A stretch of DNA of 64,000 nucleotides from an uncultured Gammaproteobacteria bacterium (GCA_964452565.1 CAYVLY010000002.1:119166-183165), one strand, 5' to 3'; positions 44,910 through 64,000 are shown, counted from the first letter of the stretch. Notes: generated by a model not told the origin, from the sequence alone. Program-made: numbers and translations.

Positions 44910-44995
44910 TTTTCCATCCCGAGTGTTAGTCGACCTGCCTGCCGGCAGGCAGGGGGATCTCTCGACTCGTCCTTCGGACTCGCTCGAGATGGAAA
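44910..44995. repeat. Palindromic intergenic element (REP/MITE-like), copy 1
   Basis: TTTTCCATCCCGAG...CTCGAGATGGAAA with internal CCTGCCTGCCGGCAGGCAGG and a GGATCTCTCGACTCG core. Related copies at 54870 and 63943. Confidence 0.7.
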
Positions 44996-45015
44996 TATTC
45001 ATGGATCGGTTTTTT

Positions 45016-45034
45016 ATAATCACTTTTAATCACC
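45016..45034. promoter_or_regulatory. Direct-repeat motif ATAATCAC-ttt-TAATCACC (candidate regulator binding site), copy 1
   Basis: About 40-bp region roughly 85% identical to 48888..48932. Confidence 0.4.
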
Positions 45035-45049
45035 TTTTCATCCTCTTCC

Positions 45050-46600
45050 TCACCACGTCGGATTGCAATCTACATCTTCTCCATCCTCATCCCTACAATC
45101 CATCAAACCATATCCAGAGGATTCAGAGTTCGCGCAATTTACAATAAGCTCATCTCCAGCAAATCCAGCCGCAGTGGCAAGTGCTGCAACAACTGGAATC
45201 GCTGCACCACCCGTAATAACAATGCCGGGGACCCCTAAGACAGTCACTATGACAGCCGCCTCGCCATCAAGGTCCAACTGAAATACCGCACACTGCTCAC
45301 CTTCTGGCGCCAATCCGCATGGATCATTTATACAAATCTCCTCCAACCAAGGATAGTTCTCATCACCACTCTCAATATCATCGATTGGCTCATACTCTAG
45401 CTCCTGCTCTCCAACGTCCAATAACTCTGGGTCTAAGTATGTAGCAAGAACAAGGTCGTACGCTCGACAACTCTCACTATCCCCATCCTCTGCATCTTGA
45501 CGCAGCTGATCGCAGTCTAGGGAATTGCCCTCTTCTGGATATACAAGCTCTACACAAGCAGTGTATGAAACTCCCAAATCAAACAGACCGGGATCATACT
45601 CACAGTAATAGAGATCATCATCATCTGGCTCAGGATCGCTTGCAAGTAATGACTCACATGCACTGTCACTTGGAGTAACGCCTTGTGAATGCGCAAATCC
45701 ACAACGAACACATTCATAACCAGTAGCACTCTCTGTCGAGCTCATGCAAGTTTCCATTGGATCTTCTGTCTCTCCATCATCTTCATAGCACGTTGACCAT
45801 ATACATTCGGTGCCATCTGTTATCGACGTCTGAACATCTTCAAACCCCTCACGAAATCCATCAACAATACCCGTATCACCGCATGCATCAGTATCCGCGG
45901 TAATATTCAACCCCGCCTCTTCCATAACTTCACAAGTCGAACTTGGATCTAAGAAAACAATGGTTCGAATCTTTGGCGGACTCAATCGATTGAAAGTCGT
46001 GAAGCTTGGATCAACTAGGTTTGCAATCGCATAGGTTGCAAACAGAAGAATAATCCCCACCACTGCATTTTTGATTCGTGTTTTTGCCTTACCAACTTTT
46101 TCTGGCTTTCCACGTGCCAACATGTACTGTAAACCACCAAGCATGATAATTACGATTGCCAGAAGTGATCCAGCGGTTAGTACCCAACTGTATGCAGCGT
46201 TTATGTAATCCCCTAAACTGTCAGACTCAGTAAAACTTCCAATGGCAACGTTAAGGCTAACTGCCTCAGGTTCTGAATAGCAGCGACCCTCACCCGGTAA
46301 ACAGTTTGTTGCCTGTCCTTCCCACTCGCCTTCGAGTTCACCAGTCTCAGTTGATGTCTCACACTCATACTGAGTCCAACACATTGTATTGTATTGCGGC
46401 TCAAGATCACTCTGATCTTCTGTGTAACATCCAAGGTAATCATCACAGGCGTCCTGGCAGGCTGCCACATCTTCTGACTCTCCATTTTCATATGCACCCC
46501 CACTCGACTCGCACCAACAGGCACAGGTATCTGCCAAAACAAAAGATGGCAGAACACAGAACGCGGAAAGCAGAATAAATAAAACTAACAAACGTTTCAT
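45050..46600 (-). CDS. Large Cys-rich acidic secreted/membrane protein
   Basis: Signal peptide MKRLLVLFILLSAFCVLPSFVLA. Two central TM helices. Many Cys and Asp/Glu residues. Confidence 0.6.
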   Translation of the reverse strand: MKRLLVLFILLSAFCVLPSFVLADTCACWCESSGGAYENGESEDVAACQDACDDYLGCYTEDQSDLEPQYNTMCWTQYECETSTETGELEGEWEGQATNCLPGEGRCYSEPEAVSLNVAIGSFTESDSLGDYINAAYSWVLTAGSLLAIVIIMLGGLQYMLARGKPEKVGKAKTRIKNAVVGIILLFATYAIANLVDPSFTTFNRLSPPKIRTIVFLDPSSTCEVMEEAGLNITADTDACGDTGIVDGFREGFEDVQTSITDGTECIWSTCYEDDGETEDPMETCMSSTESATGYECVRCGFAHSQGVTPSDSACESLLASDPEPDDDDLYYCEYDPGLFDLGVSYTACVELVYPEEGNSLDCDQLRQDAEDGDSESCRAYDLVLATYLDPELLDVGEQELEYEPIDDIESGDENYPWLEEICINDPCGLAPEGEQCAVFQLDLDGEAAVIVTVLGVPGIVITGGAAIPVVAALATAAGFAGDELIVNCANSESSGYGLMDCRDEDGEDVDCNPTW

Positions 46601-46690
46601 ACAGCTATATTGTAGCATGAAAGAGACATGATCATATGCTATACTGTGAGCATTGACGCATAAGGCTAATCCTGCTAGGATCTTACCGTT

Positions 46691-46900
46691 ATGACATTAG
46701 ACATTATACAATTTATCCTTGCTATTTTGCTGGTTGGAGCAGTGCTTATCCAGTCAAAAAACGCAGGACTTGGATCAATCTTTGGAGGAAGTGACAATGT
46801 ACAAACAACTCGACGTGGAGTTGAGAGAAAACTGCACATTACAACAATTGTGATCGCAATTTTGTTCTTTGCTATCTCGCTTCTCAACGTCTTGTACTAG
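46691..46900 (+). CDS. secG: Preprotein translocase subunit SecG
   Basis: 69-aa two-TM protein with LGSIFGGS motif characteristic of SecG. Confidence 0.75.
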   Translation: MTLDIIQFILAILLVGAVLIQSKNAGLGSIFGGSDNVQTTRRGVERKLHITTIVIAILFFAISLLNVLY

Positions 46901-46946
46901 ATAGATCCCTCGCAAGCTTTTTATTGAAAGCCGCGAACCGACAAAC

Positions 46947-48773
46947 ATGTCAACTCACATGAAAAACCTAAAACGAACACTCAAGCGCGTGATCGCGCCA
47001 GTGAAATCTTTCTTTACAAAAAAACCTTCCAGCAAGAAGAACCTGGCAATGCAACAGGTAATGAGCGCTAAAGAGGTTAAAAAAGTTCCAAGCGGAAAGC
47101 AGCTTAAGCACTTCCCTTCATTATTATCGCAACGTGAAAGGATGATCGCTGGAGTTGCTGTTCTTATTATTATAATCTCTGGGATATTTCTTATCCGGTC
47201 AATCATCGGCACCCAACAAACAACCATCGCTGCAGTTGGAGGAGAATACACTGAAGGCCTAATTGGATCACCACAGTTGATCAATCCTCTCTACTCCCTT
47301 ACAAGTGATGTGGATACAGACCTTTCTAGACTCATATATAGTGGTTTAACAAAATTTGATACTGAGCTTGGAACGGCGCTTGACCTTGCAGAATCTTATT
47401 CGATTTCAGAAGACGGACTTGAGTACACATTTACCATTCATGAGAATGCTAAATGGCATGATGGCAATCCAGTGCTTGCAGATGACATCATCTTTACAAT
47501 AAGCGCGGTTCAAAATACGCAGTACCGTAGCCCGCTTGCAACAAGTTTTGAGGGAGTAACTGTCTCGCAGGTTGATGACCGTACAGTGCTTTTCACACTT
47601 GAAGAAACATCTGGCTCATTCATGTCACTTATGAGCGTTGGGATCCTGCCATCACACCTTTGGCAGGAGATAACACCGGCTAACGCTGTTCTGACACAAC
47701 TCAACATTAAACCCATTGGATCTGGTCCATATATGTTTGAGGTGTTGGAAAAAGACGAACGGACTGGGAATATTAAGAACTATACTTTGGAAAGATTTGC
47801 CGATTATTACGGAGATGGTCCATATATCGAATCAATAACTTTTAAATTCTACCCAGACCTCATATCAGCATTAAACGCACTGCAAAATCATAATGTTGAG
47901 GGTGTGAGTTATGTCCCAGTATCCGAAGCTCTGGCACTTGAGGACGAAGACCGCACTACTATAATGACAGCTGGGATGAATGAATATGTATCTGCGTTCT
48001 TCAACCAGGACTCATCAAATGCGCTCGCTGATGAAGAAGTTAGGAAGGCACTTGTCTTTGGTGTGTATTATGAAGAAATTATTGATGAAGTGTTCTCTGG
48101 GTATGCCCGATCAACTAGCAGCTTTATTCTTCCTGAGACATTAGGGTATTCAGAAGACATTGTCGATGTCGGGTTTGATCAAAAATACGCAACTACAATC
48201 CTAAACGAGGCAGGTTGGGAGATTGATGGTGATACAGGCCTAAGAATGAAGGGCGATGAAACCTTGTCGCTCACAATAACAACGCTTGAATCTCAGGAAT
48301 TGCTTGATGTGGCAGAACTTTTAAAAACTCGTTGGGAAGAGTTAAATATCGAAGTTGAGATTGAGGCGGTTGATGTTACTACATTCAAAAATGAGACTAT
48401 TGTGGATCGCGATTATGAAATCCTGCTATCAGGAGAGGTTTATAGTGCAAACTTGGATCCATATGTTTTCTGGCACTCATCACAGGTTGATTATCCAGGC
48501 CTTAACTTAGCCGGATATGAGGACGCTGATGCTGACACTCATATAGAGACTGCTCGCGAAACAACTGATATTGCGAAACGAGAATCAAACCTTATCAGTT
48601 TACAGGAAATCATTCTTGCAGATTATCCTGCTGTATTCTTGTACCAGCCACTCTACACATACGCGATCTCAAGCTCGATCAGAGGGGCCGAGTATGAGCG
48701 TATTTCCGTACCAGCTGATAGATTCAATAACATCAACGAATGGCACATAAAATCATCTAAAAGCTTTGAATAG
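46947..48773 (+). CDS. ABC transporter substrate-binding protein, family 5 (oligopeptide-binding-like)
   Basis: N-terminal TM/signal anchor. Length and overall SBP_bac_5-like layout. Confidence 0.75.
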   Translation: MSTHMKNLKRTLKRVIAPVKSFFTKKPSSKKNLAMQQVMSAKEVKKVPSGKQLKHFPSLLSQRERMIAGVAVLIIIISGIFLIRSIIGTQQTTIAAVGGEYTEGLIGSPQLINPLYSLTSDVDTDLSRLIYSGLTKFDTELGTALDLAESYSISEDGLEYTFTIHENAKWHDGNPVLADDIIFTISAVQNTQYRSPLATSFEGVTVSQVDDRTVLFTLEETSGSFMSLMSVGILPSHLWQEITPANAVLTQLNIKPIGSGPYMFEVLEKDERTGNIKNYTLERFADYYGDGPYIESITFKFYPDLISALNALQNHNVEGVSYVPVSEALALEDEDRTTIMTAGMNEYVSAFFNQDSSNALADEEVRKALVFGVYYEEIIDEVFSGYARSTSSFILPETLGYSEDIVDVGFDQKYATTILNEAGWEIDGDTGLRMKGDETLSLTITTLESQELLDVAELLKTRWEELNIEVEIEAVDVTTFKNETIVDRDYEILLSGEVYSANLDPYVFWHSSQVDYPGLNLAGYEDADADTHIETARETTDIAKRESNLISLQEIILADYPAVFLYQPLYTYAISSSIRGAEYERISVPADRFNNINEWHIKSSKSFE

Positions 48774-48796
48774 CCCCAGAGGTTGCCCCTGAGGGG

Positions 48797-48825
48797 TTGA
48801 CAGTATTAATCATACGTGCTATTAT
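48797..48825 (+). promoter_or_regulatory. Near-consensus sigma-70 promoter TTGACA-17-TATTAT
   Basis: TTGACA at 48797..48802, a 17-nt spacer, TATTAT at 48820..48825. About 240 bp upstream of rnj, suggesting a long structured 5' UTR or a small RNA. Confidence 0.45.
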
Positions 48826-48887
48826 ACTTATCTTAATACCCACGTGTGCCCCTTGAAAAAAGTGATGAAAGGCAGAAAAAGTGATCA

Positions 48888-48920
48888 AAGGTGATTTTTT
48901 AATAATCACTTCTAATCACC
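48888..48920. promoter_or_regulatory. TAATCAC motif cluster (one inverted AAGGTGATT plus ATAATCAC-ttc-TAATCACC), copy 2
   Basis: Matches 45016..45034. Lies in the rnj leader region. Confidence 0.4.
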
Positions 48921-49068
48921 TCTTCAACCTTTTTGACCCTCCTTCTGCTATGTGACTAGTCGTCTCTTTTTCGTATTTCAAAAAAGTCGAGTATTCATAT
49001 ACGTGGATCGGTATAAATCCGATCGGCATCGCAAGATGCAGCTTATTCATTCGTTAACAATTTAAACT

Positions 49069-50931
49069 ATGGTTCAGAAAAAAAGACGAACGACTACTCG
49101 TCGAAGCTCTCGACGTAAGCCGTTCCAAAAGAAAAAAGGGGCCACAACCCAGTCTACCAAAAAGCCGACACATCAAAAGGTTAAAGCAAAACCAAAGACA
49201 AATACCAAACGTACCCACCGCAAGCCCCAAAAAACTAGAGTCTTTAAGGGTCGAGGTGGTGATGAAGTTCGTGTAATTGTTCTTGGTGGACTAGAGGAAG
49301 TGGGTCGAAACTGTACACTTATTGAATACAAAAATGACATCATGATCATTGATCTGGGTCTTGAATTCCCAAGCGAAGACATGCATGGAGTGGATTACAT
49401 CATTCCAAACATGGACTATCTTAAGGGGAAGGAAAAGAACGTGCGTGGTGTTGTAATCACCCATGGTCACTATGACCATATCGGAGGAATCCCTCACATT
49501 GTTCCAAAAATTGGAAACCCACCAGTTTATACAATGCCAATCGGTGCTGGAATCATTAAAAAGCGCCAGGAGGATTACCCTCAGTCAAAGATCAACATCA
49601 AAGAGATCGATGCTAAAACAACACTACAGCTTGGAGTCTTTAAAGTGTCATTCATTCACATGAATCACAACATTCCAGACTCAGCAGCTGTTGTGGTAGA
49701 AACTCCGGTTGGAACCATTATCCACTCTGGAGACTGGAAGTTCGACTTCCATCCAGCGGGAGAGGAGCAGGGCGATCTACACAAAATGGCTCGACTTGGC
49801 GACAAGGGTGTATTACTCCTTATGGGTGATTCAACGAATGCCAATAAACATGGACATCAAACCTCAGAAAAAGTCATTGGTGAAGAATTACGAAAGGTTA
49901 TCCAGCAAGCTGACGGTCGAATAGTTATTGGAACATTCGCTTCGCTACTCTCGCGCGTTAAACAGATCCTGGAAATCTCTGAACAACTTGGAAGGAAGGT
50001 CGTAATTAACGGACGATCGATGATAACTAATGTTGAAATCGCAAGACAAAAAGGTTTCATCCACATAAGTGACAAGACCCTAATTCCAGTTGAAAAAATC
50101 AACACATACCCAGACGAAAAAGTCATGGTCGTGTGCACTGGAGCACAAGGAGAAGAAAATGCAGCCCTGAGCAGGATTGCAAATGACGAACACAAAAATA
50201 TTCGTATCAAAGAAGGTGATACTGTCATTTTCTCTAGCTCGATTGTTCCAGGAAATGAAGTTTCTGTGTCCCGCCTAAAAGATACTCTGTACAAGAAAGG
50301 AGCGAATATTATTCACTCCGCAGATATGGATGTTCACGCAGGAGGACATGGAAAAAAGGAAGATATTAAACTTATGATCAGTTTGATTAAACCTGAATAC
50401 TACATGCCAATTGAAGGTAACTACAGCTTGCTTCATGCAAATGCACAAGTTGCCCACTCGCTTGGTTATGATAAGCAACATGTAATCCTTGCTGATAACG
50501 GTCAAGTAATTGAAGTTAAAAAGGACCGAAACGGCAAAGGAAACATTCGCAAAACTCAAGAGAGAGCCAATACTGACTACGTCTTTGTTGACGGGCTCGG
50601 TGTTGGAGATATCTCTCAGATCGTCCTGCGTGACCGAAAGGCACTTGCAGAAGACGGTATGGTCATCCCAGTTATTAAAGTCGACAAGAAAACTGGAAAG
50701 ATGGTTGGAAATGCAGATATTATCAGTCGTGGATTTATCTTTATGAAAGATAACCAAAAGCTCATCCAAGAAACCCGCAAGTTAATTAAGAAGGCGGTGG
50801 TAGATGATGATCCAAAATCCAATGCTGATTCTGACTACATCAAGAAAACAGTTCGAGATGCGGTTGGAAAGTATCTGTTCAAAAAGACCAAGCGTCGACC
50901 AATGATCATTACGCTTGTCATTCAAATCTAG
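49069..50931 (+). CDS. rnj: Ribonuclease J (beta-CASP metallo-beta-lactamase RNase) with a basic N-terminal extension
   Basis: HGHYDHIGG motif, beta-CASP layout, about 555-aa core preceded by a 65-aa Lys/Arg-rich tail. Confidence 0.9.
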   Translation: MVQKKRRTTTRRSSRRKPFQKKKGATTQSTKKPTHQKVKAKPKTNTKRTHRKPQKTRVFKGRGGDEVRVIVLGGLEEVGRNCTLIEYKNDIMIIDLGLEFPSEDMHGVDYIIPNMDYLKGKEKNVRGVVITHGHYDHIGGIPHIVPKIGNPPVYTMPIGAGIIKKRQEDYPQSKINIKEIDAKTTLQLGVFKVSFIHMNHNIPDSAAVVVETPVGTIIHSGDWKFDFHPAGEEQGDLHKMARLGDKGVLLLMGDSTNANKHGHQTSEKVIGEELRKVIQQADGRIVIGTFASLLSRVKQILEISEQLGRKVVINGRSMITNVEIARQKGFIHISDKTLIPVEKINTYPDEKVMVVCTGAQGEENAALSRIANDEHKNIRIKEGDTVIFSSSIVPGNEVSVSRLKDTLYKKGANIIHSADMDVHAGGHGKKEDIKLMISLIKPEYYMPIEGNYSLLHANAQVAHSLGYDKQHVILADNGQVIEVKKDRNGKGNIRKTQERANTDYVFVDGLGVGDISQIVLRDRKALAEDGMVIPVIKVDKKTGKMVGNADIISRGFIFMKDNQKLIQETRKLIKKAVVDDDPKSNADSDYIKKTVRDAVGKYLFKKTKRRPMIITLVIQI

Positions 50932-50942
50932 ATTTAACAAAA

Positions 50943-50973
50943 CCCGCGCAGAAAGTGCGGGTTTTGTGTTTTC
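50943..50973 (+). terminator. Rho-independent terminator after rnj
   Basis: CCCGCGC-agaaa-GTGCGGG followed by TTTTGTGTTTTC. Confidence 0.65.
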
Positions 50974-52968: not shown

Positions 52969-53395
52969 ATTCTGTCGTTCAGGAAATACGATAGTCGCTT
53001 GACGCTTTGCGTCATGAGGAAAGTCCGAACACCCCCTGCACGGTAACGTGCATGGACAAAGGATGTTGCTAACAGCAACCAAGGGATCAGAACGGGAGGA
53101 ACTGGAATATTGTTCCTGCCAGTCTGATTAACCTTAGGGAAAGTGCCACAGAGACAATACTAGCTCTTCGGAGTTAAAGGTGAAAAGTAGTGCGGTGTCT
53201 GAGGTCAGATGACCTCGATAGGCTACGCACTTCGCTCCATGGTGACATGGAAGCGTGGTAAACCCATCCTGGTGCAAGAGCAAATTTGGTCGCTCGCATG
53301 AAGTGATTGGCAACAATCACTCTAGATAAATGACTATCATCTTATGTCGCCCTACGGGCTATATCAGATACAGAATTCGGCTTACCATTTCCTGA
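52969..53395 (+). ncRNA. rnpB: RNase P RNA (bacterial type A-like)
   Basis: P4 strand AGGAAAGTCCG. GTGAAAAGTAGTGCGGT and GGTAAACCC...GCAAGAGCAAATTTGG conserved blocks. P1 pairing TCAGGAAAT/ATTTCCTGA defines the ends. Confidence 0.6.
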
Positions 53396-53406
53396 GCAAC
53401 AAAGAT

Positions 53407-53446: not shown

Positions 53447-54847
53447 ATGAAACGAGTCAACCTCTTCTTTGCCGCACTTCTAGTTCCTTTGGACTATATC
53501 GTTGTTGTTGGAGCTGCCTGCTTTGCTTATTGGATGCGATTTACCCCATTTGTCCGGGAGATTCGGCCAGTAGTTTTTGACCTGCCTTTTGATGCCTACT
53601 TCAAGGTCACTGTAATATCAGGCTTTGTCTTCTTGATAATCTTTGCGCTATCAGGTCTATATGTTATCCGACAAATGCGTCTTGCCACTGAGTTTGTACG
53701 TATCATACTTGCAGTATCAGCTAGTATCGCAGTGGTGCTCGGAATTGCATTTTTCTCCCGTGAGTTGTTTGACTCACGTTTTATTGTTTTGGCGGTTTGG
53801 GGATTTTCACTCATATTCGTCTCGATTGAGAGATACCTTATCAGAATGCTTCAAAGGTCGTTGCGCCATTTTGGCATTGGACTGCAACGCGTGGTGATTA
53901 TTGGAAAAACAAAATCTGGGCAATCACTTAAAAAATACTTTCAACGATATCCAAAAATTGGTTTTGAAGTTGTTGAACACATCACGCATTTCACAGAAAG
54001 CTCAAGAGACAAAATCTTGTCACTTAAGAAAAAAGGGATGGTTGACGCACTAATGCTTGCTAATCCTGAGGCCGACAAGAAAGAGATACGATCAATTAAA
54101 GCATTTTCTGACGTTGAACATCTCAACTTCTACTACTCAGCAGAAATCTTCCCAAGTGGCGCAGTAAAGCCAGTCATACACACACTTGCCGGACAGCCAA
54201 TCATTGAAGTTCCGAAGACTCCGCTAGATGGGTGGGGCGCGATTTGGAAACGTGGATTTGATATTGTCATGTCTTTGTTCTTCATAATACTCACATCACC
54301 GATTCAGATCCTGGCAGCGCTAGCACTATTTATCGAACAGCCCGGTAATGTGTTCTTTGTACATAAACGTGTCGGACAAGGGGGCAAGGCTTACAATCAT
54401 CTTAAGTTCAGATCAATGATAAAAGACGCACATAAGTATCGCTTCGACCCAGAGTTCATTAAAAAGTATGGAAATGAACGCGGCGGGACTCCCCTTTTCA
54501 AACTTACACACGATCCCCGTATCACCCGTGTTGGTCGTATCATACGAAAACTTTCTATTGATGAACTTCCTGAATTATTTATGGTACTGATCGGTCGCAT
54601 GAGCTTGATTGGCCCTCGACCACACATGCCTGAAGAAGTTGAAAAATACAAACCACACCAAAAACAAGTACTCACAATCAAGCCTGGGATGACTGGCATG
54701 GCCCAAGTCGGTGGCCGCGCAGAGCTCGACTTTGATGAAGAAGTTCAACTGGACATGCACTACATCCAAAACTGGAGCCCATGGCTCGACTTGATAATCC
54801 TTTTCAAAACACCAATAGTAGTTATCTTCGGCAAAGGCGCATATTAA
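53447..54847 (+). CDS. Polyprenyl-phosphate sugar phosphotransferase (WbaP/CpsE-like bacterial sugar transferase)
   Basis: N-terminal TM helices. C-terminal KRGFDIVMS...YNHLKFRSM...DELPELFMVLIGRMSLIGPRP bacterial sugar-transferase signature. Upstream ATG 53414 lies inside the terminator stem. Confidence 0.85.
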   Translation: MKRVNLFFAALLVPLDYIVVVGAACFAYWMRFTPFVREIRPVVFDLPFDAYFKVTVISGFVFLIIFALSGLYVIRQMRLATEFVRIILAVSASIAVVLGIAFFSRELFDSRFIVLAVWGFSLIFVSIERYLIRMLQRSLRHFGIGLQRVVIIGKTKSGQSLKKYFQRYPKIGFEVVEHITHFTESSRDKILSLKKKGMVDALMLANPEADKKEIRSIKAFSDVEHLNFYYSAEIFPSGAVKPVIHTLAGQPIIEVPKTPLDGWGAIWKRGFDIVMSLFFIILTSPIQILAALALFIEQPGNVFFVHKRVGQGGKAYNHLKFRSMIKDAHKYRFDPEFIKKYGNERGGTPLFKLTHDPRITRVGRIIRKLSIDELPELFMVLIGRMSLIGPRPHMPEEVEKYKPHQKQVLTIKPGMTGMAQVGGRAELDFDEEVQLDMHYIQNWSPWLDLIILFKTPIVVIFGKGAY

Positions 54848-54869
54848 AAAACAGACCCCTGCCCATTGT

Positions 54870-54951
54870 CCATCCTGAGAGAGCCGTCAGGCGAGTCGAA
54901 GGATCTCTTGAAACTTGATTCTTGAGATCCCTCGGCTGACGCTCGGGATGG
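54870..54951. repeat. Palindromic intergenic element (REP/MITE-like), copy 2
   Basis: CCATCCTGAGAGAGCCGTCAGGCGAGTCGAAGGATCTC...GAGATCCCTCGGCTGACGCTCGGGATGG. Near-perfect inverted arms. Shares the CCATCC..GAG and GGATCTC core with copy 1. Confidence 0.7.
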
Positions 54952-54977
54952 AATAGGGTGTAGGTCTGTTTTTTGTT

Positions 54978-56786: not shown

Positions 56787-56787
56787 T

Positions 56788-58080: not shown

Positions 58081-59211
58081 ATGCGTATTGGTATTGATGC
58101 TAGATTTTATGGACCCCGAGTGGGCGGAGGCGGACTTGGTCGTTACGTCGCTGAATTAGTGACTCATTTACAAGAAATTGACCAAAAAAATCAGTACGTT
58201 CTTTTTTTACGTAAAGACAACTTTCACGAATGTCGAATAACTAACAAGAACTTCTCAAAGCAACTTGTTGACATTCCTTGGTACACGCTAGAGGAGCAGA
58301 TGAAAATGCCGGGAGTGGTTGCACGCTCGCAAGTGGACTTCATGCACTACCCACACTGGAACGTTCCGATCTTTTCGAAAGTACCATTCATAGTAACAGT
58401 CCATGATCTCATAATGCTTGAACTGCCTCGCTCTTCAAGGGTTAGCACTCGCAGTCCGATTGTTTACGGATTTAAGCATGCAGGATTTAGAATGACGCTT
58501 GAGAGTGCAATTCATAGATCTCGACACATTCTTACGGTGTCAAAGTATACTAAGCAGTCGATCCTCAAACATTTTGGCGTAAAGCAGGATGAGATAACAG
58601 TCATCCTAAATGGAGTTATTCCACCTCGTGAAGCCCGATCTGTTAGTCTCACCGCTCTCGGTGTATATCAGCCGTACTTTCTCTATGTTGGAAATGCTTA
58701 TCCGCACAAGAATATCGAAATGATGATGCATGCATTCGCGCAGTTTCATGAGAATCATCCATATGTACAGTTAGTAATTGCCGGACGTCGTGATGTATTT
58801 TCACAAAGATTGGAAAAAGAAGCTGATGAGCTTGGTCTAAAGGGTGAGGCTGTTCGATTCATTGATCTACCAACAGATGAAGAACTTGCTGCACTTTATA
58901 AAAATGCAAATCTATTCATCTTCCCTTCTCGAATCGAGGGATTTGGGATCCCACCACTTGAGGCAATGAGCTATGGGACTCCGGTCGCGGCAGCAAAAAC
59001 AAGTTCGATTCCCGAGGTTTGCAAGCATGCTGCTCACTACTTTGAACCAGACGATATCGAGGCGCTCGCAGAGCTTATGCGCCAAGCAGCAGATGAGCCT
59101 GAACGTTTTGATCAAAGCACAAAGGATGGATTCAAAGTTGCTGAAAGTTATACATGGCGCGAAACAGCAAAACAGACTTTAGAAGTTTACAATAATCAAT
59201 CACTACTCTAA
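58081..59211 (+). CDS. Family 4 glycosyltransferase
   Basis: EGFGIPPLEAMSYGTPVAAAKTSSIPEV GT4 motif. Confidence 0.85.
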   Translation: MRIGIDARFYGPRVGGGGLGRYVAELVTHLQEIDQKNQYVLFLRKDNFHECRITNKNFSKQLVDIPWYTLEEQMKMPGVVARSQVDFMHYPHWNVPIFSKVPFIVTVHDLIMLELPRSSRVSTRSPIVYGFKHAGFRMTLESAIHRSRHILTVSKYTKQSILKHFGVKQDEITVILNGVIPPREARSVSLTALGVYQPYFLYVGNAYPHKNIEMMMHAFAQFHENHPYVQLVIAGRRDVFSQRLEKEADELGLKGEAVRFIDLPTDEELAALYKNANLFIFPSRIEGFGIPPLEAMSYGTPVAAAKTSSIPEVCKHAAHYFEPDDIEALAELMRQAADEPERFDQSTKDGFKVAESYTWRETAKQTLEVYNNQSLL

Positions 59212-59214
59212 GGC

Positions 59215-61839
59215 ATGGCTCGCAAAAGGCGACAATCAAAGAACTTGAAAAAGGCACAACCGCAAGTGTCCAAGCTTTATGATGATGCGCTTCCAGTTTC
59301 CCTGCAGAATCGTGGGATATCTGATGCGTTGCGGCCTGGGATACGCGTGCACTCGTCAGACACAGCGCCTGTGTCACCTTATGTGATTGAGTTGTCTCGA
59401 CAGGAAAAGCGAGAACAAGCAAAAGAAACCACTGAACAAAAAATTGAAGAACTTGCAGCTCAACTGGCTCAAATAAATGAATTTGATCAAATAGATACTG
59501 CAGTGCCAGTAGTAGCATCCCTTGAGTTGTCTTCTGGGGAACTTGCCGGACAGCTTCGCGAGCCTGAAAGAATCATTGGAAAAATTCAAATCAAAGAATC
59601 AGTTGAATCAACTACGCATGTAAGTGAGCTTCCAGAGATTGAGGTTGACTCTCCAGATGTTTGGAGTGTGATCGAACAAGTGGATCCTTCGTCATCTTCG
59701 ATTCCTCAGGATGACGAACTTACTTGTCATTCTGAGCGCAGCGAAGAATCTACTCAGGACGAGATTAACCACGAATCCCACAAAGTATTAAGTTCTGAGA
59801 CACTTGTAGAGCGCTTCTCGAGAATTCACTTGCTTTTACCAAAACAAGCACGTCACCGTGCCATGGCAGCATTTTTGGTTATCTCATTCATCCTTGTAAT
59901 GCCATTACATGCCATGCAAGGCATAATAGATAGTACGTCCATTGAGTCAGAGATCACCCGCATTAGCTCACAGGCGATAACTGAGATCGAGAGTGCAACT
60001 AGTTCTGCTCAGGCGCAAAAGTTTGGAACTGCAAGCTTAGACTTTGAGCGTGCAGCTGAAAGTTTTGAAGAAGCAGAGCAATCACTTAAAAACATGCACC
60101 TAGCCGCGACTGCTCTCGTAAACATCATTCCTCAAACAGATAACACATACGACACGGTTCAAGGTTTAGTGCGTGCAGGAGCATCACTTTCAACTGCTGC
60201 AGCCCAAATCAGCTCCGCAATTGAACAGCTTACAGATGCTGACTCTTACGACCTTGTTACCAAGCTGGAGCTTCTAACAACTTATGTTAATGCTGCGCTT
60301 CCAGAAGTGGTAGAAGCGAATAAGGCGCTCGGCGAAGTTGATCTAACACTGATACCTGCAGATTACATCGATAAAATCACAATGCTTTTGGATACCGCGC
60401 CGTCACTTGAGGCGTCGATGAACGAATTCTTACAATTCTCAGGAACTCTTCAGGTACTACTTGGTGGAGACCAAAAGATGCGCTACCTACTTGCATTCCA
60501 AAATAACACAGAGCTTAGAGCTACTGGAGGATTTGTGGGAAGCTTTGCACAAGTCGACATGCTAAATGGTGTAATTGAGGAAATCGACATTCCTGAAGGT
60601 GGTACTTATGACGTTCAAGGTCAACTTGATGAGTACATCGCGCCACCAGAGCCACTTACACTTCTAAATAGCCGTTGGGAATTGCAAGACGCCAACTGGT
60701 TCCCTGACTTCCCAAGCTCAGCCCAGAAAATGCTTGGATTCTACGAAAGCGCCGGTGGCCCAACACTTGATGGTGTTATAGCAATCAATGCGACCCTAAT
60801 GCCAAAGTTGCTTGAAATCACTGGGCCGATTGAAATGCCTGAATATGATCGAACGATTACAGCTGAGAACTTCTTATTTGAAACTCAGAAGATTGTTGAA
60901 TACGAATATATAGAGTACGAGGATGATGCAGAGCGCGAGGAAGACGCTCCAAAGCAATTCATTGGCGACTTAGCGCCAAAAATCTTAGAACGGCTTAGTG
61001 AAGCAGAGCCTGAGATGCTTTTGCAGGTTCTAGACTTACTTGCAACCTCGCTCACGCAAAAGGACATGATAATCTACATGCAGGACAATGAACTGCAAAG
61101 CGATATTGAGACACTGGGTTGGTCAGGGTCGCTCAAACAAACAGATGGCGACTATCTCATGGTTGTGAACACAAACCTTGGTGGTGGAAAAACCGATACA
61201 GTGATTAAACAAGACATCCAACTTGATGTTGAGATCGCAGAAGATGGGTCAATCATAAATACAGTCACAATCACAAAAGAACACACAGGACTTAGCACAG
61301 CTCTATTTGAAGGTGTAAACAATGTTGATTACATACGGCTATACGTGCCACTTGGAAGTGAGCTTTTGAGTGCAAGTGGCTTTGAGATCCCAGATGATGA
61401 ACTTTTTGAAGAGTCTGAGGTCCCTCTACAAGCTGATGAGGACATGCTTATGTGGACATCTGACTTTGCTATGGATATGAACTCTGGAACTGATATTTGG
61501 GCAGAGCAAGGTAAAACAGTATTTGGAAACTGGATTCAAACAAAGCCAGGTGAGATTGAAACTGTTACATTTAGCTACAAGCTACCATTTGCTTTTGAAG
61601 AATCTGGAGACTCGATTCTTGAAATGGCAAAGGCTTATCTTGGGATCAAACAGCTAAACGAATATTCGCTACTGTTACAAAAGCAGCCTGGAGTGGAAAC
61701 TCGCACAACAGACATTAATGTATTTGGACCAAGTAACCACAATATTATCTGGAGCTCACATAATGAACTAACTACTTCTGGAACTCAGATTGATAATTCT
61801 CAAGATCACTTCTTCTCTACCCTGTTCGAACAACGATAA
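59215..61839 (+). CDS. Large membrane-anchored protein (874 aa), hypothetical
   Basis: Single TM helix near residue 210 (AMAAFLVISFILVMPL), followed by a long extracytoplasmic region. Confidence 0.65.
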   Translation: MARKRRQSKNLKKAQPQVSKLYDDALPVSLQNRGISDALRPGIRVHSSDTAPVSPYVIELSRQEKREQAKETTEQKIEELAAQLAQINEFDQIDTAVPVVASLELSSGELAGQLREPERIIGKIQIKESVESTTHVSELPEIEVDSPDVWSVIEQVDPSSSSIPQDDELTCHSERSEESTQDEINHESHKVLSSETLVERFSRIHLLLPKQARHRAMAAFLVISFILVMPLHAMQGIIDSTSIESEITRISSQAITEIESATSSAQAQKFGTASLDFERAAESFEEAEQSLKNMHLAATALVNIIPQTDNTYDTVQGLVRAGASLSTAAAQISSAIEQLTDADSYDLVTKLELLTTYVNAALPEVVEANKALGEVDLTLIPADYIDKITMLLDTAPSLEASMNEFLQFSGTLQVLLGGDQKMRYLLAFQNNTELRATGGFVGSFAQVDMLNGVIEEIDIPEGGTYDVQGQLDEYIAPPEPLTLLNSRWELQDANWFPDFPSSAQKMLGFYESAGGPTLDGVIAINATLMPKLLEITGPIEMPEYDRTITAENFLFETQKIVEYEYIEYEDDAEREEDAPKQFIGDLAPKILERLSEAEPEMLLQVLDLLATSLTQKDMIIYMQDNELQSDIETLGWSGSLKQTDGDYLMVVNTNLGGGKTDTVIKQDIQLDVEIAEDGSIINTVTITKEHTGLSTALFEGVNNVDYIRLYVPLGSELLSASGFEIPDDELFEESEVPLQADEDMLMWTSDFAMDMNSGTDIWAEQGKTVFGNWIQTKPGEIETVTFSYKLPFAFEESGDSILEMAKAYLGIKQLNEYSLLLQKQPGVETRTTDINVFGPSNHNIIWSSHNELTTSGTQIDNSQDHFFSTLFEQR

Positions 61840-61856
61840 GCAAAAACCCCCTCCAT

Positions 61857-61918
61857 CTCCCCCTTCGAAAGGGGGAGGGTCTAGGTCGAAATCAAGCCCC
61901 CTCCTTACGAAGGAGGGG
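61857..61918 (+). other. Twin GC-rich hairpins in the intergenic region. The second sequesters the RBS of the downstream gene.
   Basis: Hairpin 1 is CTCCCCC-ttcgaaa-GGGGGAG at 61857..61877. Hairpin 2 is CCCCTCCTT-acg-AAGGAGGGG at 61898..61918, ending 1 nt before ATG 61919. AGGAGG lies inside its 3' arm. Confidence 0.5.
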
Positions 61919-63883
61919 ATGGGGGAGGTCCATAAGAACTCGATCGGATACAAACATATGACACCGAAGGAATCCAAGAAAAAAACAAAAAAACACTCGT
62001 CAAAAGCGCATGAAAAAAAGCATGCGCCTCATGAGCCTCACACAGACAGAACACAGAAGCATGAAAAAACTCATGAGCATATAAAGCATGAGCGGCACCC
62101 ACATAAGGAAGATAAGGAGCTCATGATGGATGAGGGGCTGGAAGCAATCTATGGCGACGGTGCAATCGACTTTGAAAAACTAGACCGTGGCGGAAATCGA
62201 CTTACGAAAATCCTCATCGCAGCTGTAATCGTTTTAGCAGTCCTTGCCGTAACTGCTTGGGCTGGGTTTTTTGTCTATACCAAGTTCTTCGAGGTGTCGC
62301 ATGATAAAAACTTTGAACTTGAAATTCTAATGGATGAAGAGCTAACCAGTGGGCAGACAACGCAGATCGAAATTCAATACGCAAACCCAACCACTGTCCC
62401 GATTGCTTCACTTGAGCTTGACGTAAACCTCCCTTCCACATTCCGTGTCTACTCGTTTAGCGAAGATCCAACAAACCTGGATGACCTGATTTGGGAGATG
62501 GGTTCCCTACCTGGAATCACCGACAACATAATAACTATTGAGGGTGTGTGGGTCGCAGAAGCTCCGTCTGAGACTCCTGTGCAGGTCTATGCGAACTACA
62601 AGCCCGGGAACTTTAACTCTACTTTTGAAGATATTGCCGTTGTATACGTCACAACACTTGAGAGCACACTGACAGCGCTCATCGAGGGCCCTGAGGAAGC
62701 ATCTGCTGGTGAAACACTTGATTACACACTAAGTGTTGAAAATATTGGCGATGAGCCGTTTGAGGACTTGCAGGTGAGTGTTGATCTGCCACAGGGATTT
62801 TACCTTGAAGATAGCGATCCCGAACTTGAAGCAGGTGGCCCTGCAGAGTGGGATATTGACTTTATTGATGCAAAGGAAATAATCGAAATTAGTTTCTCTG
62901 GAACTTTTGCTTCTAACATCGAAGGCTTCCAGTACTTTGATGCTTCTGTCGATTTGGTGACTGAAACACGAGAGATTGAGCAATCTAGCGCACAAGCATA
63001 CACTGATGTCCTACAAAACGATATTAGTGTGCAGCTGGTTGCCAATGGAGTAACCGATGAAACTAGTGTGGACGTCGACAGTAACCTGCGAATCAGCATC
63101 GGACTTGAGAATACTGAAGATACTCCAATCGAGGATCTGTCAGTGCTGCTCGACTTCCAATCTGATGACTCAATCCCGATTGGATGGAGCAACTCTACAC
63201 TTGATAGCGGAACAATAACAAGCGATGGGATCTACTGGACTCTGGATTCGATTGAGCCGGGTGAGAAGATCCTTATTAATACTTCGTTCCCAATAGACTC
63301 TGAGCTTGGAGTGGGCGACGCTGATACATTCCAGGTTGTAGCGTCATCGACCTATGAAGGACGTAAGGTGCTATCATCTCCGATGAGTATTTTGATAAAT
63401 TCAGAAGCAGATTTACAAACATCTATCCGATACTACGAGGATAGCGGTGCAGTGCTTGGAAACGGACCCCTACCGCCACAGGTTGATCAAACCACTACAT
63501 ACAGCGTGATATGGACGATCGACAATAGTCTGCATGATCTTGAAGATGTTACTGTGAGCGCAGATCTTCCCCCACATGTGAGTTGGGCTGGGAACGCAAC
63601 ACATGACCTAGGATCGATAAACTATAATGGCTCTGAACATAGCGTTGCATGGACAGTTGATTCGCTGACGTCTGATCTTTCTAGCATTGAAGGACGGTTC
63701 TCAATTTCGATTACCCCAGATTCTGGTGATGTTGGATCGTTTGTGAAGTTGATCTCTGGATCTGAACTAAAAGCAACTGACTCATCCACTGGCGAATCGC
63801 TGACTAGCTCGACTGATTCACTAACAACCGATCTGGTAGATGATATGTACGCTATTGTAGAGGGAGGGGTTGTTATTGAGTAA
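61919..63883 (+). CDS. Large surface protein with an N-terminal basic region, one TM helix and DUF11-like repeat domains
   Basis: His/Lys-rich N-terminus. TM helix LTKILIAAVIVLAVLAVTAWAGFFVY. Repeated segments of the TLDYTLSVENIGDEPFEDLQVSVDLP type. Confidence 0.65.
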   Translation: MGEVHKNSIGYKHMTPKESKKKTKKHSSKAHEKKHAPHEPHTDRTQKHEKTHEHIKHERHPHKEDKELMMDEGLEAIYGDGAIDFEKLDRGGNRLTKILIAAVIVLAVLAVTAWAGFFVYTKFFEVSHDKNFELEILMDEELTSGQTTQIEIQYANPTTVPIASLELDVNLPSTFRVYSFSEDPTNLDDLIWEMGSLPGITDNIITIEGVWVAEAPSETPVQVYANYKPGNFNSTFEDIAVVYVTTLESTLTALIEGPEEASAGETLDYTLSVENIGDEPFEDLQVSVDLPQGFYLEDSDPELEAGGPAEWDIDFIDAKEIIEISFSGTFASNIEGFQYFDASVDLVTETREIEQSSAQAYTDVLQNDISVQLVANGVTDETSVDVDSNLRISIGLENTEDTPIEDLSVLLDFQSDDSIPIGWSNSTLDSGTITSDGIYWTLDSIEPGEKILINTSFPIDSELGVGDADTFQVVASSTYEGRKVLSSPMSILINSEADLQTSIRYYEDSGAVLGNGPLPPQVDQTTTYSVIWTIDNSLHDLEDVTVSADLPPHVSWAGNATHDLGSINYNGSEHSVAWTVDSLTSDLSSIEGRFSISITPDSGDVGSFVKLISGSELKATDSSTGESLTSSTDSLTTDLVDDMYAIVEGGVVIE

Positions 63884-63942
63884 TAATAACCAAAGGGACC
63901 AAAGAAACCCGTAGCCAGATAAAGACCGATCCGTATAATTAT

Positions 63943-64000
63943 CCATCCCGAGCGTAGCCCGGCAACTGCCGGGCGTAGTCGAGGGATCTCTCGACTCCCC
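63943..64000. repeat. Palindromic intergenic element (REP/MITE-like), copy 3, truncated by the window end
   Basis: CCATCCCGAGCGTAGCCCGGCAACTGCCGGGCGTAGTCGAGGGATCTCTCGACTC shares both CCATCCCGAG and GGATCTCTCGACTC with copy 1. Confidence 0.65.

What the first reader, a model, noticed from the sequence alone, without database searches (positions are those of the whole stretch)
44910..64000. Family of palindromic intergenic elements (CCATCCCGAG ... GGATCTCTCGACTC) in the host region
Three roughly 80-bp imperfect palindromes lie at 44910..44995, 54870..54951 and 63943..64000 (the last is cut by the window end). They share end motifs and a GGATCTCT(C/T)GA core and always sit between convergent or terminating genes. 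They look like REP/MITE-type elements, possibly terminators or nucleoid-protein sites.
Basis: seen in the sequence. Interest (0 to 1): 0.55.

Follow-up and report, generated by a model that had tools for sequence, protein, structure and literature searches.

The report
REP-like hairpin repeats inside terminators
The three palindromes are real: each is an inverted pair of a small REP-type hairpin repeat sitting inside a transcription-terminator hairpin of a tiny-genome Uhrbacteria (CPR) bacterium, which is a known kind of selfish repeat in a new host and a variant form.

Summary
The three ~80-bp palindromes exist at the stated coordinates. Each is an inverted doublet of a 21-50-nt hairpin unit: (N)NNC-AT-NNN-GA(G)...(C)GA-N'N'N'-AT-C. 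The stem triplet covaries: 7 of 8 motif frames in the window are perfectly complementary, using 4 different triplets, against 0.025 in shuffles.

A covariance model finds 8 units at 5 sites, all in the 45%-GC host part. Two sites are new: a singlet in the uvrA 3' region, and a doublet lying in frame inside a DUF4012 gene.

The three doublets sit in the apical part of A-run/T-run-flanked hairpins right after stop codons. Orthologous terminators in related Uhrbacteria are simple hairpins where the window is filled, and filled where the window is simple. So the repeats come and go inside pre-existing terminators.

The same unit occurs in Alphaproteobacteria, Acidobacteriota, cyanobacterial plasmids and at least 100 uncultivated viral contigs.

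The closest described family is the CGTC-tagged REP superfamily (Di Nocera 2013), which has no known transposase. The units here differ from it by tandem G.A mismatches, long variable apices and partly different tags.

Verdict: a REP-type repeat, a new variant of a known kind, of moderate interest.

The parts
41867..41913 (-). Single REP-like unit with a CGTC tag: GTC-ATCCT-GAG...CGA-AGGAT-CTA. It lies between the uvrA stop codon (41943) and a simple terminator.
   Evidence: Covariance-model hit of 32.1 bits, E 2e-5. Also found by the pattern searches. Sequence read.
41843..41866 (-). Simple intrinsic terminator (ACTCCCC-TTTT-GGGGAGT, then a T-run on the minus strand) next to the singlet. This is context, not part of the repeat.
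   Evidence: Read directly from the sequence.
44895..45015 (.). Copy 1. A composite bidirectional terminator-like hairpin: A6 + CCGACCC ... GGATCGG + T6, enclosing an inverted doublet.
   Evidence: Sequence. Folds at -55.4 kcal/mol (plus strand) and -59.4 kcal/mol (minus strand), z -6.0 and -7.0.
44913..44962 (+). Copy 1, left unit (ATCCC...GGGAT). It is a variant that lacks the 3' GA, and its apex holds the nested palindrome CCTGCCTGCCGGCAGGCAGG (44934-44953).
   Evidence: Covariance-model hit of 18.9 bits, E 0.027. Nested palindrome found.
44953..44993 (-). Copy 1, right unit (ATCTC-GAG-CGAG-TCCGAAGGA-CGAG-TCGA-GAGAT).
   Evidence: Covariance-model hit of 29.7 bits, E 8e-5. Unit fold.
54845..54975 (.). 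Copy 2. A composite hairpin that fills the whole gap between two convergent stop codons: A6 + CAGACC ... GGTCTG + T6.
   Evidence: Sequence. Folds at -71.2 and -64.0 kcal/mol, z -7.3 and -7.5. The identical sequence is present in Logan contig L033.
54869..54908 (+). Copy 2, left unit (ATCCT...AGGAT).
   Evidence: Covariance-model hit of 40.7 bits, E 2e-7.
54923..54952 (-). Copy 2, right unit (ATCCC-GAGCGTCAGCCGA-GGGAT). Its stem triplet differs from that of its partner, so the doublet is a heterodimer.
   Evidence: Covariance-model hit of 33.5 bits, E 1e-5.
59680..59715 (-). Intragenic unit with a CGTC tag (GTC-ATCCT-GAG...CGA-AGGAT-CCA), inside the DUF4012 ORF 59215-61839.
   Evidence: Covariance-model hit of 34.6 bits, E 6e-6. 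Sequence and translation.
59726..59753 (+). Intragenic unit with a TGTC tag (GTC-ATTCT-GAGCGCAGCGA-AGAAT-CTA). With the previous unit it forms a doublet whose tags face inward. The doublet is in frame and encodes ..DPSSSSIPQDDELTCHSERSEES.. in a hypervariable linker.
   Evidence: Covariance-model hit of 35.3 bits, E 4e-6. The linker is variable in the alignment of 11 homologues, while the N-terminus upstream is conserved. Logan contigs end at window positions 59649 and 59753.
63921..64000 (.). Copy 3. Outer stem AAAGACCGATCC plus the left unit of a doublet. The right half lies beyond the window end.
   Evidence: Sequence. The orthologous terminators in relatives L092 and L094 are simple AGAACCG...CGGTTCT hairpins.
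63942..63991 (+). Copy 3, left unit (ATCCC-GAG-CGTAG-CCCGGCAACTGCCGGG-CGTAG-TCGA-GGGAT).
   Evidence: Covariance-model hit of 29.4 bits, E 9e-5. Unit fold at -24.9 kcal/mol.

Best explanation
The palindromes are inverted doublets of a small REP-type hairpin repeat. The repeat is non-coding and non-autonomous. Its closest published relatives are the CGTC-tagged REPs.

The unit is a single-strand hairpin with these parts:
- a 3-4-nt unpaired tag;
- a 5-bp stem that always starts with A-T and T-A;
- a tandem G.A/A.G mismatch (GA...GA);
- a G-C pair;
- a variable apex that is usually its own mini-hairpin;
- a short tail.

In this Uhrbacteria genome the units have been gained and lost at different places. 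The survivors sit where a compact genome can tolerate them: the apical part of intrinsic-terminator hairpins, a 3' untranslated region, and a disordered protein linker, where the doublet is in frame.

Inside terminators the doublet lengthens the stem but leaves the basal stem and U-tract intact. The composite should therefore still terminate, in both directions. This step is inferred.

Spread most likely goes through the single-stranded DNA hairpin of the G.A-bearing strand, recognised by an enzyme supplied in trans. That enzyme is unknown, as it is for CGTC REPs in general. This step is also inferred.
For: Shown: the unit is real.
- Of 8 CAT-NNN-GAG...GA-NNN-ATC frames in the window, 7 have perfectly complementary triplets: CCT/AGG three times, CCC/GGG twice, CTC/GAG and TCT/AGA. 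Shuffles give 1.2 frames and 0.025 complementary frames.
- In 100 independently retrieved viral loci, 61 of 240 frames with a triplet other than the one forced by the search are complementary. That is about 25%, against 1.6% expected.
- The covariance model R1 gives 8 hits at E<=0.03. All lie in 41.8-64 kb, and none lies in the 36-kb GC-rich island.
- Within heterodimers each unit's own stem is perfect, while pairing between the two units has mismatches.
- The G.A strand folds better than its complement in 8 of 8 window units and in 96 of 124 other units.

Shown: copies turn over.
- The RNase J terminator is simple in the window (50937-50967). In relative L092, between the same conserved flanks, it holds a ~95-nt doublet.
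- The terminator after the DUF11 gene is simple in L092 and L094 but filled in the window.
- L094 has a doublet in the DUF4012/DUF11 spacer. The window has only a possibly decayed unit-like hairpin at that spot.
- The same DUF4012 linker carries different doublets in the window and in L201. L201 also has a 14-aa insertion, made of a sister-type doublet, that is absent from 10 homologues.
- The same nested-palindrome subvariant sits at non-orthologous sites in two genomes.

Shown: terminator context. The A and T runs and the outer stems lie 0-38 nt from stop codons. Folds are -55 to -71 kcal/mol.

Family resemblance. The anatomy, the dimer organisation, the position after ORFs, the intragenic copies and the lack of a neighbouring transposase all match the description of CGTC REPs.
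Against: - No transposition event or enzyme is shown. At the two orthologous filled/empty pairs the flanks have diverged too far to define exact insertion boundaries or a target duplication.
- Five of the 8 window units carry TTCC, GTCC or ATCC instead of the CGTC or TGTC tag.
- The stems are 5 bp plus G.A mismatches, not the 8-9 uninterrupted bp of the published families, and the apices are far longer than 4-5 nt. The units may therefore be a sister group rather than members.
- I could not see Figure 2 of the paper, which holds the consensus sequences.
- Terminator function is inferred from sequence only.
- The preference for terminator loops may reflect what selection tolerates rather than where the element inserts.
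- Only 28 kb of the host genome could be read.
Confidence: 0.68

Rival explanations
1. The elements are a family of dedicated bidirectional intrinsic terminators, or 3'-end stabilisers, that evolved in place. The shared motifs would reflect selection for a terminator design, not mobility.
For: All three doublets have A-run/T-run flanks, strong folds and positions right after stop codons. The outer stems look alike.
Against: - The same unit occurs without any U-tract as a singlet (41867-41913) and in frame inside an ORF (59680-59753).
- Orthologous terminators in relatives work as simple hairpins without the unit, and the reverse also occurs.
- The same unit is found in other phyla without T-runs and in phage contigs.
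- Covariation supports the unit hairpin, which is not part of the minimum-energy fold of the composite.
Confidence: 0.1
2. The unit is a structured RNA motif, for example a protein-binding hairpin with tandem G.A pairs that acts in 3' UTRs on mRNA stability or processing.
For: - The fold is strand-asymmetric because of the G.A mismatches.
- The stems covary.
- The units are mostly transcribed positions downstream of ORFs.
- Di Nocera et al. also argue that many REPs act as RNA.
Against: - Single units in viral contigs show no orientation bias relative to flanking ORFs: 12 sense against 14 antisense. The gene calls behind this count are crude.
- Doublets place one sense and one antisense unit in every transcript.
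- Copies lie inside coding regions.
- No Rfam family matches.
Confidence: 0.12
3. The elements are classical REPINs mobilised by a RAYT (Y1 HUH transposase) encoded elsewhere in the genome.
For: The units form inverted doublets that fold into long hairpins. They have an unpaired tag next to a mismatched hairpin, which is the design RAYTs recognise according to the paper's summary.
Against: - There is no GTAG or GTGG tag.
- No Y1 transposase was found among the window ORFs scanned or in the gene lists of the syntenic loci.
- The published CGTC REPs, the closest match, are never next to RAYT genes.
- REPINs are usually lineage-specific, whereas this unit crosses phyla.
Confidence: 0.07
4. The similarity is a chance resemblance between ordinary terminator palindromes.
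For: The 11-mer core alone is not significantly enriched when one mismatch is allowed.
Against: - The joint motif occurs 3 times against about 4e-6 expected.
- There are 7 strict units against 0.3-0.5 in shuffles.
- Covariance-model E-values reach 2e-7.
- Relatives exist in many genomes.
Confidence: 0.01

Closest known systems
CGTC-tagged REP superfamily (Di Nocera, De Gregorio & Rocco 2013, BMC Genomics 14:522, PMC3733652). It includes Neisseria dRS3 and Rickettsia RPE-4 and RPE-6.
   Same: - An unpaired tag of CGTC or TGTC, seen on 3 window units and on 194 of 217 related units in viral contigs.
- A stem that starts with complementary A and T.
- A short 3' tail.
- Mostly inverted dimers with the tags outward, often as heterodimers.
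- Positions just downstream of ORFs between convergent or same-direction genes.
- Occasional in-frame intragenic copies.
- No transposase gene nearby.
- Spread over several phyla.
   Different: - The stem here is 5 Watson-Crick pairs followed by a tandem G.A mismatch, not 8-9 uninterrupted pairs.
- The apex is 5-35 nt and is often a nested hairpin, not a 4-5-nt loop.
- The terminator-embedded units carry NNCC tags.
- The hosts found here are not in the paper's list of five phyla: Patescibacteria, Cyanobacteria, Acidobacteriota, Verrucomicrobiota and uncultivated phages.
- The paper's consensus figure could not be read, so I cannot say whether a GAG...CGA subtype is already included.
GTAG REPs / REPINs mobilised by RAYT transposases (Bertels & Rainey 2011, PMC3116915; Nunvar 2010, from memory)
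   Same: Hairpin units of 20-40 nt with an unpaired tag, arranged as inverted doublets that fold into one long hairpin. They are intergenic and their copy number varies between relatives.
   Different: The tag is not GTAG. No RAYT is seen. The unit sequence is shared across phyla, whereas REPINs co-evolve with a lineage's own RAYT.
Rickettsia palindromic elements (RPEs) in protein-coding genes (Ogata et al. 2000, from memory; RPE-4 and RPE-6 are cited)
   Same: Palindromic repeats inserted in frame into ORFs and tolerated in the protein. The examples here are the DUF4012 linker in the window and in L201, and an MmeI-type gene on a Planktothrix plasmid.
   Different: RPE-1 is 100-150 bp and specific to Rickettsia. 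Here most copies are intergenic and the host is a CPR bacterium.
Bacterial MITEs such as Correia/NEMIS, ERIC and Nezha
   Same: Small, non-autonomous, hairpin-forming, next to genes and co-transcribed.
   Different: No terminal inverted repeats derived from an IS, no target-site duplication seen, and a much smaller building block.
Small dispersed repeats (SDR) of Nostocaceae (Elhai et al. 2008). The paper is not held, so this rests on memory and on the mention.
   Same: Very small (about 20-27 nt) hairpin repeats with compensatory changes, thought to be mobile, sometimes nested in other elements.
   Different: SDRs were reported only in Nostocaceae. No sequence relationship was tested.

Membership tests
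CGTC-tagged REP superfamily | Unpaired 5' tetranucleotide tag CGTC (variants TGTC, CCTC) | tested here: inconclusive
   The tag is CGTC on the units at 41867-41913 and 59680-59715, and TGTC on the unit at 59726-59753. The five terminator-embedded units carry TTCC, GTCC or ATCC. Among related units in viral contigs the tag is TGTC in 177 and CGTC in 17 of 217.
CGTC-tagged REP superfamily | Stem begins with complementary A and T at positions 1 and 2 | tested here: met
   All 8 window units, and all 24 aligned units from 6 or more taxa, have AT...AT.
CGTC-tagged REP superfamily | Stem of 8-9 base pairs | tested here: not met
   There are 5 Watson-Crick pairs, then a 2x2 G.A/A.G internal loop, then further pairs.
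CGTC-tagged REP superfamily | Loop of 4-5 nt | tested here: not met
   The window apices between GAG and (C)GA are about 6-34 nt. The commonest form elsewhere is GAG-CGCAGC-GA or GAG-CGAAGC-GA, that is, a 3-nt loop on a 2-bp extension.
CGTC-tagged REP superfamily | 3-nt unpaired tail, consensus CCA | tested here: inconclusive
   The tails are CTC (doublets), CTA, or CCA (unit at 59680-59715). In viral contigs the tail is mostly CTC.
CGTC-tagged REP superfamily | Mostly inverted dimers, often heterodimers | tested here: met
   Four of the 5 window sites are doublets, 3 of them with the tags outward. Stem triplets differ between partners at 44913/44953, 54869/54923 and 59680/59726.
CGTC-tagged REP superfamily | Located close to ORF 3' ends (convergent or same-direction genes), with some in-frame intragenic copies | tested here: met
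   Compare with the paper's description read.
CGTC-tagged REP superfamily | No dedicated transposase gene flanked by the repeats | tested here: inconclusive
   None was found among the window ORFs scanned against Pfam or in the syntenic loci. Only 28 kb of the host genome is available.
REPIN / RAYT system | GTAG (or GTGG) tag next to the hairpin | tested here: not met
   No unit has it at the tag position.
REPIN / RAYT system | A RAYT gene in the genome, flanked by the same REPs | not testable with these tools
   The 219,860-bp source contig and the rest of the MAG could not be retrieved.
MITE | Terminal inverted repeats of a parent IS, plus a target-site duplication | tested here: not met
   No duplication is visible at the filled/empty pairs, and no parent IS was found. 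The flanks are too diverged for a firm negative.
Intrinsic (Rho-independent) terminator | G+C-rich stem directly followed by a U-tract, just after a stop codon | tested here: met
   This holds for composite hairpins 1 and 2, in both directions, and for the left half of hairpin 3. It does not hold for the singlet or the intragenic doublet.
Intrinsic (Rho-independent) terminator | Measured termination activity | not testable with these tools
   No transcriptome or assay is available.

The most novel reading that the evidence does not exclude
The GA...GA hairpin unit may be a distinct mobile 'nano-hairpin' carried by many bacterial phyla and by phages. Its single-strand fold would be propagated by machinery that is not encoded next to it, possibly a host-universal replication or repair activity or a phage-supplied enzyme. 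It would insert preferentially into the apices of existing hairpins such as terminators. Tiny CPR genomes and phage genomes that carry it would then give a very short candidate list for the long-missing mobilising activity of CGTC-type REPs.
Probability: 0.15. Interest if true: 0.7.

Novelty: new variant of a known kind. Interest (0 to 1): 0.4.

Why it matters
REP-type repeats were described mainly in Proteobacteria. CGTC-type REPs have no known mobilising enzyme or function.

Here a recognisable relative is found at high local density, 5 sites in 28 kb, in a CPR bacterium, a group known for very small genomes (from general knowledge). It sits in terminator apices and in a protein linker. The same unit is found in several other phyla and in uncultivated tailed-phage contigs.

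This matters in three ways:
- It widens the known host range of the family.
- It gives a concrete picture of where a compact genome tolerates selfish hairpins, including one that is translated.
- It offers small genomes in which to look for the missing enzyme.

There is also a practical point. These repeats break short-read assemblies and probably generate spurious or altered ORF calls in CPR MAGs.

Tried and rejected
- **Rfam.** A scan at gathering thresholds found only RNase P RNA and one tRNA in the window. E-value scans of copy 1 and of nine related loci gave no relevant family.
- **Ribozymes and other repeat classes.** I considered hammerhead or other ribozymes, integron attC sites, CRISPR arrays and DNA-uptake sequences by reading the motifs. 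The cores do not match and the density is low.
- **Literature search by sequence.** Ten- to 15-mers returned only primer matches. The Elhai 2008 SDR paper is not held.
- **First genome and metagenome scans.** Scans with CCATCCYGAG...GGATCTCTYGA returned about the number of hits expected by chance. Only about a dozen were real relatives, and the source genome is not among the GTDB representatives. The same pattern found nothing in viral contigs.
- **Retrieving the source contig.** This failed. Only 2-5-kb Logan contigs are indexed.
- **Associated gene in viral contigs.** The recurrent neighbouring ORF clusters that matched Pfam were terminase, portal and prohead protease; several others had no match. 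No transposase was found.
- **Exact insertion boundaries.** Related phage contigs and related Uhrbacteria gave presence/absence pairs, but no clean junctions.
- **Self-nesting of units.** Only 1 of 67 long apices holds a unit-like motif, so I make no claim.
- **Sense-strand bias relative to genes.** None was seen: 12 sense against 14 antisense.
- **Cultured phages.** No match in GenBank phage records.

Full report
**1. The observation**

Each starts with CCATCC(C/T)GAG, and each holds GGATCTCT(C/T)GA 21-31 nt further on. These are the only three exact occurrences of that 11-mer in the window. Copies 1 and 2 end with CTCGAGATGG and CTCGGGATGG. Copy 3 runs off the window end.

The joint left-end/core pattern occurs three times in 64 kb. 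My own arithmetic, assuming equal base frequencies, expects about 4e-6.

Each palindrome is the inner part of a longer hairpin flanked by an A-run and a T-run:
- Copy 1 spans 44895-45015 (AAAAAACCGACCC ... GGATCGGTTTTTT).
- Copy 2 spans 54845-54975 (AAAAAACAGACC ... GGTCTGTTTTTT).
- Copy 3 starts at 63921 (AAAGACCGATCC ...).

These hairpins fold at -55 to -71 kcal/mol, with z-scores of -6 to -7.5 on either strand.

**2. The surroundings**

- **Composition.** Bases 1-36,000 are 52-66% G+C. The rest of the window is 42-51%.
- **Host part.** It encodes housekeeping genes: RluD-like pseudouridine synthase, cytidylate kinase, ribosomal protein L19, UvrA, RNase J, TrpRS and glycosyltransferases. It also encodes proteins with T4SS_pilin and DUF4012 domains.
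- **Organism.** The DUF4012 protein is 100% identical to a protein on a 219,860-bp NCBI contig. Its named relatives are Candidatus Uhrbacteria or Patescibacteria.
- **Island.** The GC-rich part carries a tyrosine integrase and a restriction-modification system and abuts a tRNA gene. It looks like an integrated island.
- **Where the palindromes sit.** Copy 1 lies after the pilin-domain gene and before uvrA. Copy 2 fills the whole gap between two convergent stop codons. Copy 3 starts 38 nt after a stop codon.

**3. The palindromes are dimers of a smaller unit**

Relatives from other organisms (section 6) showed a shorter module: C-AT-NNN-GAG ... (C)GA-N'N'N'-AT-C. In it, the two triplets are complementary.

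- **Strict pattern.** It finds 7 units in the window, against 0.3-0.5 in shuffles.
- **Fairer test.** I looked for the frame CATNNNGAG...GANNNATC without requiring the triplets to pair. This gives 8 frames in the window, and 7 are perfectly complementary. They use four different triplet pairs: CCT/AGG, CCC/GGG, CTC/GAG and TCT/AGA. Shuffles give 1.2 frames and 0.025 complementary frames. The stem therefore covaries.
- **Covariance model.** I built model R1 from 24 units of at least six taxa. It gives exactly 8 window hits at E<=0.03, and the next hit is at E=0.42. All 8 lie between 41.8 and 64 kb, and none lies in the island.

The hits are the six arms I can see of the three reported palindromes, plus two new sites:
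- a singlet at 41867-41913, between the uvrA stop codon and a simple terminator;
- a doublet at 59680-59753.

Each unit folds on its own as a 5-bp stem, a 2x2 G.A/A.G internal loop, a G-C pair and an apical mini-hairpin, often with a GAA or GCA triloop. Several units repeat the C-GA-G/C-GA-G module further up the stem.

Because of the G.A pairs the fold depends on the strand. The G.A strand is more stable than its complement in 8 of 8 window units and in 96 of 124 other units.

In the heterodimers (copies 1 and 2, and the intragenic doublet) each unit's own stem is perfect, while pairing between the two units has mismatches. The covariation therefore supports the unit hairpin, which is not the long hairpin that dominates the minimum-energy fold of the composite.

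**4. One doublet is translated**

The doublet at 59680-59753 lies inside ORF 59215-61839 and is in frame. It encodes ..VDPSSSSIPQDDELTCHSERSEESTQDE...

- The N-terminal 120 residues upstream are conserved in 10 homologues, so translation starts before the repeat.
- The repeat falls in a hypervariable acidic linker just before the membrane segment.
- The 82%-identical orthologue (L094) has a linker of similar length without the motif.
- A 65%-identical orthologue (L201) has a different doublet at the same place: CCATCTCGAC...GAGATCC / GATCCCTCC...CGGGATGG, with the tags outward.
- L201 also has a second doublet of a sister type. It accounts for a 14-residue insertion absent from the other 10 homologues.
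- Logan short-read contigs of the same genome end at window positions 59649 and 59753, as expected at a repeat.

**5. The repeats come and go inside pre-existing terminators**

| Site | Window | Relative |
|---|---|---|
| Between RNase J and TrpRS | Plain terminator AACAAAACCCGCGC-agaaa-GTGCGGGTTTTGT (50937-50967) | L092 keeps the same flanks (ttaacaaaaCCCC ... GGGGttttgtgttttctggtataatctaaa), but the apex holds a ~95-nt doublet |
| After the DUF11/CARDB gene | Outer stem AAAGACCGATCC plus a doublet | L092 and L094 have plain AGAACCG...CGGTTCT hairpins |
| DUF4012/DUF11 spacer | Only a possibly decayed unit-like hairpin | L094 has a doublet |

Other points:
- The nested palindrome CCTGCCT(G/A)CCGGCAGGCAG sits in a unit apex both in window copy 1 and in the L092 RNase J doublet. 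These two sites are not orthologous. It also stands alone in L094.
- The A and T runs and the outer stems are therefore the terminators. The repeat is a passenger in their apical part.
- I could not define exact junctions or a target duplication, because the compared genomes are too diverged.
- I cannot tell whether the loop position reflects targeting or only what selection tolerates.

**6. Distribution**

- **First scans.** Scans of the genome and metagenome collections used the CPR-type pattern. They gave about the number of hits expected by chance, but about a dozen were true relatives with the same doublet architecture.
- **Taxa of the true relatives.** They are another Patescibacterium (L015), a MAG labelled Candidatus Odyssella (taken here as an alphaproteobacterium; L009, two doublets right after stop codons, no T-runs), Acidobacteriota (L004, L016, L066), a Desulfobacteraceae MAG (L012) and a Chthoniobacterales MAG (L013).
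- **Plasmids.** BLAST against plasmids found units in Planktothrix, Gloeothece and Phocaeicola. In Planktothrix several units lie inside an annotated MmeI-type gene.
- **Viral contigs.** A scan with the canonical form GTCATCCTGAG-N5-30-CGAAGGATCTC returned 100 stretches, where my estimate of chance matches, assuming about 1e11 bases in the collection, is below one.
- **What the viral stretches hold.** There are 217 units. The tags are TGTC (177) or CGTC (17), and the tail is mostly CTC. The apex is usually CGCAGC or CGAAGC but reaches 41 nt. Frames with other triplets are complementary in 61 of 240 cases, so the covariation is independent of the search pattern.
- **Neighbouring genes.** Recurrent neighbouring ORFs include large terminase, portal and prohead protease. 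The contigs are therefore real tailed phages, and no transposase recurs.
- **Cultured phages.** GenBank phage records gave no match.
- **Orientation.** Single units show no bias relative to flanking ORFs, 12 sense against 14 antisense, though the gene calls are crude.

**7. Comparison with what is known**

No Rfam family matches. The closest description is the CGTC-tagged REP superfamily of Di Nocera et al. 2013 (PMC3733652). That paper describes:
- an unpaired CGTC tag (or TGTC or CCTC);
- stems that almost always begin with complementary A and T;
- a 3-nt tail;
- mostly inverted dimers, often heterodimers;
- positions within about 20 bp of ORF 3' ends, between convergent or same-direction genes;
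- in-frame intragenic copies (Rickettsia RPE-4 and RPE-6 are members, as is Neisseria dRS3);
- no associated transposase;

The units here share the tag (3 of 8 in the window, and most elsewhere), the A-T start, the dimer organisation, the context and the lack of a neighbouring transposase.

They fail three criteria. The stem is 5 bp plus G.A pairs rather than 8-9 bp. The apex is up to about 35 nt rather than 4-5 nt. Five window units carry NNCC tags.

I could not read the paper's consensus figure, so I cannot say whether a GAG...CGA subtype is already listed. I therefore file this as a variant of that kind, in hosts not reported there (CPR, Cyanobacteria, Acidobacteriota, Verrucomicrobiota, phages).

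**8. Mechanism**

Shown:
- a covarying, strand-specific hairpin unit;
- dimer organisation;
- gain and loss at orthologous sites;
- location in terminator apices, a 3' untranslated region and a protein linker;
- absence from the recently acquired island.

Inferred:
- The composite hairpins still terminate transcription in both directions, because the basal stem and U-tract are intact.
- The units spread as single-stranded DNA hairpins handled by an enzyme supplied in trans, by analogy with RAYT and IS200 chemistry. The lack of orientation bias towards transcription fits this idea.
- The enzyme is unknown.

Rivals are scored in the report sections: pure terminator design, an RNA regulatory motif, RAYT-driven REPINs, and chance.

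**9. Verdict**

It is a REP-type repeat family of a known kind in a variant form and a new host group. Two aspects are modestly interesting. One is the passenger position inside terminator hairpins of a CPR genome, which is usually very small (from general knowledge). The other is the wide reach of the unit across phyla and into phages. Interest 0.4.

Noticed in passing
window 1-36000 (tRNA at 36064-36137): A 36-kb segment of 52-66% G+C abuts a tRNA gene in a 42-51% G+C Uhrbacteria genome. It carries a tyrosine integrase (18156-19367), a type I/IIG-like restriction-modification pair (21692-25479) and a weak Mutator-transposase-like hit (31736-33145). Six of the ten large ORFs scanned have no Pfam match. 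It could be an integrated island or prophage with a very different base composition, or an assembly chimera. It contains none of the repeat units.
   Followed up: partly
window 52979-53399: A class A RNase P RNA (174 bits) with unusually large insertions, of 46 and 35 nt, at two places where the Rfam model has short loops.
   Followed up: no
window 44934-44953; L092 1266-1285; L094 16589-16604: The small palindrome CCTGCCT(G/A)CCGGCAGGCAG(G) recurs in three genomes. Twice it is nested in the apex of a REP-like unit at non-orthologous sites, and once it stands alone. It may be a second, even smaller repeat.
   Followed up: partly
L092 14560-15830; L094 12560-13460 (relatives, just beyond the window's right end): A 1-1.3-kb G+C-rich stretch without called genes lies downstream of the DUF11 gene. 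It has two promoter-like cTTGACAaaa...TATTCT boxes and terminator hairpins, and it is partly conserved between the two relatives. There is no Rfam match. It may hold unknown non-coding RNA(s).
   Followed up: partly
L004 5061-5420; L066 775-874: In Acidobacteriota the same unit occurs in head-to-tail tandem arrays with a 65-bp period. Each period holds one unit plus a second G+C-rich hairpin.
   Followed up: no
L097 3001-3075 and 4639-4797 (Planktothrix agardhii plasmid NZ_LR882964.1): Several units lie inside the annotated CDS of an MmeI-type restriction-modification enzyme, together with GCTCAGAATGAC half-unit repeats. A sister plasmid has them in a BREX PglX gene. I did not check whether the reading frame is really kept.
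   Followed up: partly
L201 1650-1712 and 1808-1872: A 65%-identical DUF4012 orthologue carries two different doublets in the same N-terminal linker. One of them has a non-AT stem (ACCTT-GAG-CCTGT-CGA-AAGGT), which suggests sister subfamilies with other stem starts.
   Followed up: partly
window 61845-61885: The hairpin ...CCATCTCCCCCTTCGAAAGGGGGAGGGTC... lies right after the DUF4012 stop codon, at the position where relative L094 has a doublet. It may be a decayed unit.
   Followed up: no
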